Part shown: positions 22,982 through 24,768 of the stretch, piece after piece
Layout: each line of letters begins with the position of its first letter
How positions within the stretch are numbered: position 1 is the first letter of the stretch
Assembly: GCA_001938485.1 (NCBI GenBank)
Contig: MQRK01224516.1
Span: forward strand, 1-49,816
Reading direction: 5' to 3'
Length of the DNA: 49,816 nucleotides
From: Girardia tigrina
Lineage: Eukaryota
Notes under the pieces: generated by a model
Database searches by the model: none
Told to the model about the DNA's origin: nothing
The model's input: the letters and a program-made list of their open reading frames with translations, nothing else
Translations under genes and position numbers: made by a program

Positions 22982-24064
22982 ATGGAATTGCCAAAGTTGA
23001 ATTCAACTTCCCAGAGAAAGCGTAATTTTTCAAAATTGATGGCTGGAGAAATGCATTTATATGGGTATAATTATTGTGGACCAGGAACCAAAACAAAAGT
23101 TCGCTTAGATCCAATTACTAAGCAACCAAAACCCGGTTATGAGCCGCTTAATGTTATTGATGAGTTTTGTCGGGAACATGATGTGGCATATGAAAGTCGT
23201 AATATTAAAATTCGACATGAGGCTGATAAAAAATTATTAAAACAGATTGATAAAATTCCTGATAGTGAATTATCTAAATTAGAAAGAGTTGAAAAAAGAA
23301 TTATAAAAGTTGTTTTTAAAGTTAAGACAAATATTGATAAAATTCGATATAAGAAAATATTATCTGATAAATATGTTGAAGATTTGAATATGCTACAGAA
23401 TTTTATTAAAGATTATAAGAAAATAACTAGGGAATTCTTTGAAGGTAATTTTCCAGTTTTAAATCAATCTATCTTTCCCAAAGCAATTGATAAATTATTA
23501 CCACGTCCTTTTAATTTATATAAAAATTTATCAGAACATAATTCAACAATGTCTTTATTAGGTAAAGCTGAAGAACAAGTATTTACTGTTAAAAATGCCC
23601 GTAAATTATTCATGAAAAGTGCAATGAATAGCAGAAAAAACAATTTTGAGTATTTTAAAAAACCCAATGCAATAAATTATAATCAACCAGGAATGATGAA
23701 TATAATGCCTTCAACATCAACTAGATTCTCAACTGTAGGAATTGGTAATAAATATAATGCTTATAATATGAAAAGTATTAGACAAAGTTATATTGGTTTA
23801 CGAAACAGATTGAATAAGACATATGTTAAAAATTTAATTAAAAAATTTCCTGGAAAAATAGGTAGTAAATTGGGAAAAGGAACAAGTGGACAATGGTTAA
23901 ATGATTCTGCTTATGAGTTAGGTAATTTACTATATGAAACAGAATTTAAACCTTCTGTAATGGATGGTCAATGTAAATTATATAGATATCATGAAAATTA
24001 CTTTCAAAGACGACAAGCTAAATCAGACGGATATAAAAAATTAATAGATGACATGATGAATTAA
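22982..24064 (+). CDS. Viral phospholipase A2 domain protein (N-terminal PLA2), first part
   Basis: Ca-binding loop YNYCGPGT, catalytic DEFCREHDVAY and downstream RHEADKKL, i.e. a parvovirus VP1u / Polinton PLA2X-type domain at ~23050-23240. Confidence 0.85.
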   Translation: MELPKLNSTSQRKRNFSKLMAGEMHLYGYNYCGPGTKTKVRLDPITKQPKPGYEPLNVIDEFCREHDVAYESRNIKIRHEADKKLLKQIDKIPDSELSKLERVEKRIIKVVFKVKTNIDKIRYKKILSDKYVEDLNMLQNFIKDYKKITREFFEGNFPVLNQSIFPKAIDKLLPRPFNLYKNLSEHNSTMSLLGKAEEQVFTVKNARKLFMKSAMNSRKNNFEYFKKPNAINYNQPGMMNIMPSTSTRFSTVGIGNKYNAYNMKSIRQSYIGLRNRLNKTYVKNLIKKFPGKIGSKLGKGTSGQWLNDSAYELGNLLYETEFKPSVMDGQCKLYRYHENYFQRRQAKSDGYKKLIDDMMN

Positions 24065-24768
24065 GTGTTAAAGAACAAACAGAATTAAGTTATAAAATAT
24101 ATGATGATACACATATTTTTTCAAAGTTATTACAATATAAACATAAATATGAACCTATAGTTACTTATGATTGGCGTGTTCCTGGTCTTGTACCATACCA
24201 TCCATTATATGAGATACCAGAAGAACCAGAGGATCATGATCCAAATGAGGGATATGAGGAAAATCCATCTAGTTGTGTTAAAAGAAATATAACTAAAAAA
24301 AGATATTCCTTTCATCAAATTCGTAATTTTCAAGATCAAGTTCGAAAGGGTTTTAAATTTATGTTAAAGGAGTCACAAAAACAAAAATATGATATTTATC
24401 AAAAAGAGGATTTATATGAATTATTAGGAGGTATTCAAGTTTTACCTTTAGCTAGAAATCATAATGAATGGTTAAACTATAGAAATAATAATGAACGTAA
24501 ATTAAGTGAATGGGATAAATTTCAATGGTATAGACGATGGAATCTTGAAATATATCCCGATAGTGAACATCATATAGATCATCATTTAAAAGTATATCAC
24601 GATATTGTATTAAATCTCCATGACGACAAATATAGTTTTAATGATCTATTATGTATTGATTTTATTTTTAAAAGTACATTTAATAATTATGACTACTACT
24701 GCAGTACCTCCTCAACCGACTCCGGGTGCCGCTTCTGCGGGTGGCGGATCAAATGCTTTGGAAGCTAG
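24052..24768 (+). pseudogene. Frameshifted continuation of the PLA2 protein (joined product ~595 aa)
   Basis: The frame of ORF 24361-24768 is open back to 24052 (HDELSVKEQTELSYKIYDD...EIPEEPEDHDPNEGYEE...), overlapping the stop of the PLA2 ORF in the -1 frame. Confidence 0.65.

What the first reader, a model, noticed from the sequence alone, without database searches (positions are those of the whole stretch)
22982..24768. PLA2 looks Polinton/adintovirus PLA2X-like and sits in its own large ORF
Seen: GEMHLYGYNYCGPGTKTKVRL...PLNVIDEFCREHDVAY...RHEADKKL...ERVEKRIIKVVFKVK. The extended context (E.H..GY.YCGPGT, RH.AD, C-terminal helix ending K.K) resembles Maverick/adintovirus PLA2X more than vertebrate parvovirus VP1u. 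It heads a ~595 aa product (after repairing the frameshift at 24052-24064) with a long unassigned remainder. Inference: a third module source and a possibly novel minor capsid/entry protein.
Basis: partly seen in the sequence, partly recalled or inferred. Interest (0 to 1): 0.7.

Follow-up and report, generated by a model that had tools for sequence, protein, structure and literature searches.

The report
Integrated ssDNA virus with Maverick-type phospholipase
A small, undescribed single-stranded-DNA virus lodged in this genome carries a membrane-cutting enzyme of the type found in large Maverick DNA elements rather than the parvovirus type, but the long fused protein proposed for it was not confirmed.

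Summary
The PLA2 domain is real (Pfam PF08398, E 3.6e-12; YCGPG loop, HD, Y and D intact). It is Maverick/Polinton-type: profiles give 73-88 bits against 21-28 for densovirus, parvovirus and CRESS domains, and its loop-to-HD spacer is 29 residues, not 17. The tree agrees (100/96), but AU tests on 96 columns reject no alternative placement. It is not PLA2X: no pX domain was found. It heads a 360-aa ORF inside an endogenous ssDNA-virus-like element with a divergently oriented CRESS-type Rep, an orphan ORF2, an orphan capsid-like ORF and a hairpin-rich right end. The Rep's apparent stop lies in a 45-nt GT-AG intron that is missing from a probable RNA contig; this copy's Rep is cut short at its C-terminus. 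The ~595-aa product is unproven: the break is real DNA, no homologue extends past the PLA2 domain, and a second copy fails to align at exactly this junction while keeping the same overall spacing. I favour separate genes, about 65:35. CRESS viruses with PLA2 are known (oomyviruses), but the three sampled use the parvovirus type. Verdict: new variant of a known kind.

The parts
22982..24064 (+). ORF1, 360 aa: N-terminal Maverick-type PLA2 domain plus a basic, orphan 240-aa tail
   Evidence: tail has 42 K+R and 20 D+E in 240 aa, no Pfam/PHROG/homologue match
23048..23326 (+). PLA2 domain (PF08398, residues 23-115): Y31-x-G33-x-G35 calcium loop, H66-D67 dyad, Y70, D82; 29-residue loop-to-HD spacer
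   Evidence: motif roles from established knowledge of parvoviral and secreted PLA2
24046..24115 (+). ORF1/ORF2 junction zone; the part of ORF1-ORF2 that does not align with other copies
   Evidence: joint 24051>24116 in X1 and X2; X3 record 16 aligns 23017-24045 and 24116-24741 only
24052..24768 (+). ORF2, 238 aa stop to stop in a different frame from ORF1; orphan; Cys-rich end overlapping the capsid-like ORF
   Evidence: 86% identical in a second copy over 24116-24741
24620..26062 (+). Capsid-like ORF (480 aa from first ATG, 456 from ATG 24692); probable single jelly-roll capsid, not proven
   Evidence: Atlas feature hits to densovirus, smacovirus and parvovirus capsids at 0.94-0.95 but with low recognition score; no homologue; model pLDDT 35
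22570..22876 (-). Rep exon 1 with HUH-like motifs (FRFSI, HSHLEIF)
   Evidence: aligned with P0163; motif labels recalled
22525..22569 (-). 45-nt GT-AG intron in Rep that contains the in-frame stop
   Evidence: sequence; missing in X3 contig, joint 22522>22570 with two letters between (table 5c); homologues P0162 and P0165 start at the first Met after it
21866..22524 (-). Rep exon 2: YxxK, Walker A GPTGIGKT, Walker B IVIDDI, motif C RIICLN; ends early, before the region that three homologues share
22903..22948 (.). AT-rich palindrome (21-nt arms, 4-nt loop) in the intergenic region between Rep and ORF1
   Evidence: strand-switch joints at the same place
26120..26397 (.). Hairpin-rich right end (17-nt perfect G/C-rich arms at 26156-26172/26214-26230; 22-nt palindrome 26327-26348); candidate telomere or origin
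   Evidence: fold z = -6.7, 0 of 100 shuffles as good

Best explanation
The ORF belongs to an endogenous copy of an undescribed ssDNA virus in a eukaryotic, probably invertebrate, genome. The virus replicates with an HUH-endonuclease/SF3-helicase Rep of CRESS type, expressed from a spliced mRNA, and transcribes a second cassette (ORF1, ORF2, capsid-like ORF) in the opposite direction. ORF1 is its own gene of about 360 aa. Its PLA2 domain was drawn from the Maverick/Polinton-type pool, not from parvoviruses. Most likely it works as parvoviral PLA2 does: a Ca2+-dependent His-Asp enzyme carried in small numbers in the particle (tethered by its basic tail, or spliced onto the capsid frame in a minor transcript) that cuts endosomal phospholipids to let the virus out. 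ORF2 is a separate accessory gene. Shown: domain, its type, intact catalytic motifs, layout, Rep intron sequence, several copies. Inferred: enzyme activity, virion location, entry role, capsid identity, separateness of ORF2, direction of transfer, host group.
For: PF08398 hit. All 9 hits and all 150 listed hits centre on the PLA2 domain; none reaches past residue 187. Five of 42 hits scanned are PLA2-rve integrase fusions, and three loci with this PLA2 type sit beside double-jelly-roll capsid and A32 ATPase genes, one also beside an integrase. Profile scores: 74.7 (7 Maverick/PLV loci), 87.7 (5 integrase fusions), 73.2 (8 PLA2X) versus 27.5 (14 densovirus), 28.3 (16 Parvovirinae), 20.9 (3 CRESS) bits. 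Spacer 29 versus 17 in 51 of 51 domains found without a spacing constraint. Tree split 100/96. Junction: other copies stop aligning at 24046/24052-24115; the X3 contig has the same distance from 23017 to 24116 as the window (1099 nt), so a fused frame there would need an extra frame change elsewhere; no GT in 23980-24062 and no slippery heptamer in ORF1's frame. Stand-alone PLA2 ORFs exist in other ssDNA viruses (PMC10267136, PMC13426907, passages).
Against: AU tests did not reject placing the domain with all parvoviral/CRESS rows (p 0.52), with densoviruses (p 0.27) or with the PLA2X group (p 0.55); bootstrap had not fully settled. Two of the three Maverick-type profiles were built from hits found with the window's protein, and the third from loci found with an alignment headed by it, which favours them. 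The X3 contig covers ORF1 and ORF2 in one unspliced piece and depth falls after ORF2, which fits a single fused mRNA; its pieces carry 13 and 3 gap letters (net -7 and -1) that I could not place, so its frames are unknown. ORF2 has no ATG until 24361. The capsid call rests on a weak language-model match. X3 being RNA is the tool's guess. AdSDV's stand-alone PLA2 was not found in virions (PMC10267136, passages), so a non-structural role is possible.
Confidence: 0.58

Rival explanations
1. One reading: ORF1 and ORF2 were one ~595-aa PLA2-headed minor virion protein, and this copy has a post-integration lesion at the junction.
For: ORF2 lacks its own ATG for 103 codons and is open right back to ORF1's end. 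One X3 contig spans both frames unspliced at depth 21.6 while the capsid region is at 1-5. This copy is damaged elsewhere (Rep truncation).
Against: A point lesion would leave the junction alignable; instead 64-70 nt fail to align in X1, X2 and X3 while both flanks are 84-86% identical, and the spacing across it is unchanged in X3. No protein of 198-630 aa or among 1.84 billion representatives matches beyond the PLA2 region. No pX or hydrophobic segment in either frame.
Confidence: 0.3
2. The domain is a very divergent parvovirus/oomyvirus-type VP1u PLA2, inherited with the capsid cassette; the Maverick likeness is convergence or reflects an ancestral state.
For: AU tests do not reject it. The ORF lies upstream of and in the same direction as the capsid-like ORF, like the split cap1/cap2 gene of scindoambidensoviruses (PMC10267136, passage). 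CRESS viruses with PLA2 exist (L074, L086, L113).
Against: About 45-60 bit gap in profile scores; the inserted RLD...PKPG.EP.N loop is shared with Maverick-type hits and absent from all sampled parvoviral, densoviral and CRESS domains; AAV capsids score only E 1.8; those three CRESS domains group with parvoviruses, the window does not.
Confidence: 0.08
3. The PLA2 ORF is a passenger: a piece of a host Maverick inserted by chance into a decaying endogenous element, with no role in the virus.
For: The window is rich in mobile-element remnants; Maverick-type PLA2 genes occur in animal genomes (P0015, P0019 from Lottia).
Against: ORF1 is open for 360 codons at about 27% GC, sits in register between Rep and capsid-like ORF, and is present with ORF2 in a second copy at 84% identity; no other Maverick gene was seen among the window's ORFs (read by eye; those ORFs were not scanned).
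Confidence: 0.04

Closest known systems
Maverick/Polinton PLA2 (PF08398), stand-alone, DUF5679-linked or integrase-fused forms
   Same: E.H..GY.Y.GPGT start, 26-30-residue spacer with the RLD...PKPG.EP.N loop, RH.AD, C-terminal K.K helix; up to 47% identity over 75 columns
   Different: Sits in a Rep-encoding ssDNA-type element with no PolB, integrase or double-jelly-roll gene seen; unique 240-aa basic tail
Adintovirus PLA2X (PMC8502044, passages)
   Same: Same PLA2 type; 8 of 9 hits are PLA2X
   Different: No pX domain; PLA2X proteins mostly have the shorter 22-residue spacer; only 12 of 150 hits carry pX, the best at rank 34
Oomyviridae, parvo-like hybrid viruses (PMC12451638, PMC13426907, passages; L074 is of this layout)
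   Same: CRESS-type Rep with a PLA2 gene; linear genomes, which the hairpin end here may parallel
   Different: Their PLA2 is fused to the capsid and, in L074, is parvovirus-type and in tandem with Rep; here divergent orientation, separate ORF, Maverick-type; no Rep similarity to L074 detected; likely hosts stramenopiles
ssDNA viruses with a separate PLA2 ORF: scindoambidensovirus cap1, AdSDV vpORF3 (347 aa), Swazi bat megaparvovirus (PMC10267136, PMC13426907, passages)
   Same: PLA2 in its own ORF of similar size, with splicing or non-structural expression; megaparvovirus also has a neighbouring unknown ORF and endogenous copies
   Different: They are parvoviruses with NS1; AdSDV's PLA2 came from densoviruses; the type of the megaparvovirus PLA2 was not checked here
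ssDNA-virus-derived repeated elements: acorn-worm parvovirus-like element, PIVE/PEVE, DENSOV_HM (PMC3198968, passages)
   Same: Multi-copy integrated element with Rep/NS1, a PF08398 ORF and a terminal hairpin; deleted derivatives
   Different: Those helicases are described as parvovirus- or papillomavirus-like; sequence relation to this Rep was not tested
Bidnaviridae (PMC4061559, passages)
   Same: Precedent for a Polinton gene entering an ssDNA virus
   Different: The gene taken was PolB, and BmBDV's capsid lacks PLA2

Membership tests
Parvovirus/Maverick PLA2 domain (PF08398) | Score above Pfam gathering cut-off | tested here: met
   46.8 bits versus 23.9
Parvovirus/Maverick PLA2 domain (PF08398) | YxGxG calcium loop, HD dyad, downstream Tyr and Asp | tested here: met
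   Y31-G33-G35, H66-D67, Y70, D82
Parvovirus/Maverick PLA2 domain (PF08398) | Phospholipase activity | not testable with these tools
   needs an assay
Adintovirus PLA2X | PLA2 domain of Maverick type | tested here: met
Adintovirus PLA2X | C-terminal pX-like domain | tested here: not met
   Profile from 8 PLA2X proteins found 20 of 159 proteins but none of ORF1, ORF2 or capsid-like ORF at E<=10; peak hydropathy 0.34 versus 1.97 in P0001
Adintovirus PLA2X | Encoded in an adintovirus virion module (hexon, penton, ATPase, PolB, integrase) | tested here: not met
   Neighbours are a Rep and a capsid-like ORF without Pfam double-jelly-roll match
Parvoviridae VP1u | Short (17-residue) loop-to-HD spacer and grouping with VP1u | tested here: not met
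   29 residues; other side of a 100/96 split; AU test alone is inconclusive
Parvoviridae VP1u | In frame with, or spliced to, the major capsid protein | tested here: inconclusive
   Not contiguous; the one probable RNA contig is unspliced over 23017-24045; minor transcripts not visible
Parvoviridae | NS1-type helicase | tested here: not met
   No Parvo_NS1 Pfam hit; Rep profile versus NS1 ORFs best E 0.007 among 637 ORFs
Cressdnaviricota | Rep with HUH motifs I-III and SF3 Walker A/B/C | tested here: met
   Motifs read from sequence and conserved in P0163; Gemini_AL1_M weak, E 7e-4 for P0163; a solved Rep domain matches over the helicase at only E 0.79. Motif labels recalled.
Cressdnaviricota | Single jelly-roll capsid | tested here: inconclusive
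Cressdnaviricota | Circular genome with nonanucleotide stem-loop origin | tested here: inconclusive
   NANTATTAC: 20 matches versus 16.8 by chance, none in the two hairpin regions; no circular joint of the whole element listed
Oomyviridae | Rep falls in the oomyvirus clade | tested here: inconclusive
   No match to the one PHV-like record held; no Rep tree was built
Oomyviridae | PLA2 fused to the capsid protein | tested here: not met
   Separate ORF, with ORF2 in between

The most novel reading that the evidence does not exclude
The element represents a family-level new lineage of animal ssDNA viruses, with an intron-bearing CRESS-type Rep, an unrecognisable capsid and a hairpin-ended genome, that replaced or supplied its entry lipase by capturing a Maverick PLA2 and uses it as a separate (or ~595-aa fused) virion protein; its integrated copies are still transcribed and Rep-deleted derivatives have amplified like a rolling-circle transposon.
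Probability: 0.35. Interest if true: 0.7.

Novelty: new variant of a known kind. Interest (0 to 1): 0.48.

Why it matters
PLA2 is the best-known entry tool of small DNA viruses. Finding the Maverick form in a Rep-encoding ssDNA element would show that this module moves between dsDNA Polinton-type elements and ssDNA viruses, adding to the PolB case of bidnaviruses, and that it can be swapped independently of Rep and capsid. The element also marks a virus lineage with only three unnamed Rep clusters as relatives and no capsid relatives in 5.8 billion proteins. It is not surprising in kind: CRESS-plus-PLA2 viruses, stand-alone PLA2 ORFs and ssDNA-virus-derived repeats are all in print.

Tried and rejected
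No whole genome is held for the window, so other copies could be seen only as laid contigs. IMG/VR scans with capsid, ORF1 and Rep, alone or aligned, found no relative; the one metagenome hit, L076, is an IS21-like IstB gene and was dropped. No homologue for the capsid-like ORF, ORF2 or ORF1's tail; the length limits mean forms over 630 and 840 aa were not searched there. Single-sequence models were unusable (pLDDT 34.9 and 37.4) and the fold searches on the capsid model are meaningless. PDB sequence searches gave nothing significant. Assembly error at the junction: rejected. Programmed -1 frameshift or a short local intron at the junction: no slippery site in frame, no GT. The Rep stop as decay: rejected in favour of an intron. 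No RNA holder is on record (X3 is only guessed to be RNA). Run X4 (organism C) gave 25 partial, unlike reads only. The joint 21041>26398 (5356 nt skipped, depth 88 and 27.5) could be an empty allele but has a 28-letter side and is not relied on. Earlier scan findings: none. The PEVE paper is not held. Literature searches listed no report of a Maverick-type PLA2 in a CRESS-type virus; searches were swamped by unrelated papers; subscription journals and supplements were not seen and may bear on novelty.

Full report
Setting. The window is AT-rich eukaryotic DNA with (AT)n runs, N gaps and retrotransposon and DNA-transposon remnants (remnants read by eye). No whole genome is held. I infer an invertebrate animal host but did not establish it.

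Observation. ORF1 (22982-24064, +, 360 aa) carries the quoted motifs and matches PF08398 at residues 23-115, E 3.6e-12, with Y31-x-G33-x-G35, H66-D67, Y70 and D82 intact. ORF2 (24052-24768, 238 aa stop to stop) is in another frame and has its first ATG at 24361. A capsid-like ORF follows (24620-26062). On the other strand, starting about 105 bp upstream of ORF1, lies a Rep with HUH-like and SF3 motifs (labels recalled).

What kind of PLA2. One search returned 9 proteins, all limited to the PLA2 region; 8 are adintovirus PLA2X with the pX-like GG.LP..P..AGL segment (definition from PMC8502044, passages). The HMMER scan of 1.84 billion representatives gave 609 hits, 150 listed, none matching beyond residue 187. 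Of 42 hits scanned with Pfam, 5 also match the rve integrase and 6 DUF5679. An alignment of the window domain and 32 hits fetched 22 IMG/VR loci: three lie beside double-jelly-roll capsid and A32 ATPase genes, others in virophage/PLV-like contigs, 13 in 3.3-3.5-kb marine contigs and one beside an RdRP. For the other side I fetched parvovirus-type domains with two degenerate patterns recalled from memory, giving 93 distinct domains; subfamily labels are mine, from genome layout and recalled motifs. Three are CRESS-type viruses with PLA2 (L074, L086, L113). The spacer from GPG(T/N) to HD is 29 in the window, 22-36 in the 134 of 150 hits that the pattern could read (78 have 27 or more), and 17 in all 93 parvovirus-type domains; 42 of these were found with the spacing fixed, so only 51 of 51 count. 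Profile scores for the window domain were 74.7, 87.7 and 73.2 bits for Maverick/PLV loci, integrase fusions and PLA2X against 27.5, 28.3 and 20.9 for densovirus, Parvovirinae and CRESS sets; the Maverick-type sets were found through the window's sequence, which favours them. The tree used 79 rows (window; 35 of 159 proteins; 10 of 19 domains; 33 of 93 parvovirus-type domains) and 96 columns; it splits the 33 from the other 46, window included, at 100/96, and leaves the window unresolved among the 46 (bootstrap not fully settled; two rows labelled PLA2X lack a pX hit). Against my reading: AU tests rejected none of three constraints: window with all 33 (p 0.52), with 14 densoviruses (18.6 log units worse, p 0.27), with the PLA2X group (p 0.55). 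No bidnavirus domain was sampled; BmBDV's capsid lacks one (PMC4061559, passages). Conclusion: Maverick-type by profile and insertion, donor and direction not shown.

Not PLA2X. A pX profile recovered 20 of 159 proteins, including the 8 it was built from, and nothing in ORF1, ORF2 or the capsid-like ORF; neither ORF has a hydrophobic segment. The closest hits are the long-spacer forms without pX; the best pX-bearing hit ranks 34th.

The 595-aa question. Contigs of two DNA runs match the window across the junction (0 and 1 differences, no gaps), so the break is real. Other copies exist: variants shared by X1, X2 and X3, and summed depth of 227-560 over ORF1/ORF2 in X1 against about 100 for the contigs identical to the window (summed depth is no copy number). 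These copies stop aligning between 24046/24052 and 24115. X3 record 16 covers 23017-24045 (168 differences, 13 gap letters) and 24116-24741 (87 differences, 3 gap letters), with 77 letters between where the window has 70, and the same total distance from 23017 to 24116. A poorly conserved stretch of unequal length between two well-conserved frames looks like a spacer between genes, and unchanged spacing argues against a simple lesion in this copy. But the gaps cannot be placed, the contig spans both ORFs unspliced, and X3's depth falls from about 21 to 1-5 over the capsid region, which would also fit one fused mRNA. No slippery heptamer in ORF1's frame and no GT donor lie near the junction. 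I put separate genes at about 65%, a fused gene at about 30-35%.

The Rep. Three protein clusters are its only relatives (P0162 63%, P0163 40%, P0164 83% over a part; P0165, a member of P0164's cluster, 78%); none is named. The in-frame stop at 22535-22537 lies in a 45-nt stretch that begins GTAAG and ends TTTTAG on the minus strand. The X3 contig lacks exactly 45 nt there (joint 22522>22570, two letters between), whereas X1 record 2 keeps it (25 further joints were not shown). P0162 and P0165 start at the first Met after it, and P0163 has the intron-less spacing. So Rep is spliced, and X3 probably holds RNA of a related copy. The window's Rep ends at 21866, while the homologues run on for 70-170 residues; the missing part is not elsewhere in the window, so this copy is defective. 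Joints that skip 425-604 nt of Rep at depths of 205-735 suggest amplified deletion derivatives. The right end folds strongly (z -6.7), and no origin nonanucleotide stands out, so a linear hairpin-ended genome is possible but not shown.

The capsid-like ORF has no sequence relative. Language-model features point to densovirus, smacovirus and parvovirus capsids at 0.94-0.95, but with a recognition value below the tool's threshold; models were low-confidence.

Mechanism. Shown: gene layout, PLA2 type and motifs, Rep intron, multiple copies. Inferred from parvovirus biology (PMC11903649 and PMC10267136, passages): the PLA2 hydrolyses endosomal phospholipids during entry, delivered as a minor virion protein held by its basic tail (42 K+R in 240 aa) or by splicing to the capsid frame; a non-structural, egress role as proposed for AdSDV vpORF3 is the alternative.

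Comparison. CRESS-type Rep with PLA2 is known: Oomyviridae (PMC12451638, PMC13426907, passages), a PLA2 cluster among circular dark-matter genomes (PMC7000223, one figure legend). Stand-alone PLA2 ORFs are known in AdSDV and megaparvovirus. Multi-copy ssDNA-virus-like elements with a PF08398 ORF and terminal hairpin are known in acorn worm (PMC3198968, passages). PLA2 in Polintons was noted in PMC3671162 (one legend). Passages of PMC9896142, PMC6186406 and PMC11071296 added no case of a Maverick-type PLA2 in such a virus. What appears new is that combination, plus the orphan Rep and capsid lineage; the searches behind that statement were made, in an open-access library, supplements unread.

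Verdict. New variant of a known kind; interest 0.48.

Noticed in passing
window 21866-21042: Rep is cut off at 21866; a very high-copy host repeat (depth up to 85,000 in X1) lies at about 21300-21730, inside the possible 5356-nt insertion 21042-26397 suggested by one short-sided joint at single-locus depth in two runs.
   Followed up: partly
window 22297-22927: Contigs skipping 425-604 nt of Rep at several times single-locus depth suggest amplified non-autonomous derivatives.
   Followed up: no
window 26317-26352: An X1 contig goes back from 26352 to 26317 through 39 other letters containing a small GC hairpin, suggesting a branched terminal structure in another copy; an X2 contig joins 26132 to 22899.
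   Followed up: no
L005-L008, L010-L015, L017-L019 (3.3-3.5 kb contigs): Thirteen small marine DNA contigs with a stand-alone Maverick-type PLA2 ORF, two conserved unknown ORFs and, in L006, a C-5 DNA methylase match; no Rep noticed.
   Followed up: no
L022:1059-1724: Maverick-type PLA2 ORF directly after an RdRP gene, preceded by a 2A-like NPGP motif (motif label recalled).
   Followed up: no
L113:3-383 and L086:4-1248: CRESS-type viruses with parvovirus-type PLA2, one in a separate overlapping ORF before the capsid and one fused to an Arg-rich capsid.
   Followed up: partly
P0026, P0028, P0063: Proteins with two tandem PLA2 domains; the second domains of P0026 and P0028 group with PLA2X.
   Followed up: no
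window 488-1769, 14400-14819, 48524-48949: Fragments that look like a non-LTR retrotransposon end, a Tc1/mariner-type and a Merlin/ISXO2-type transposase (read by eye; names recalled).
   Followed up: no
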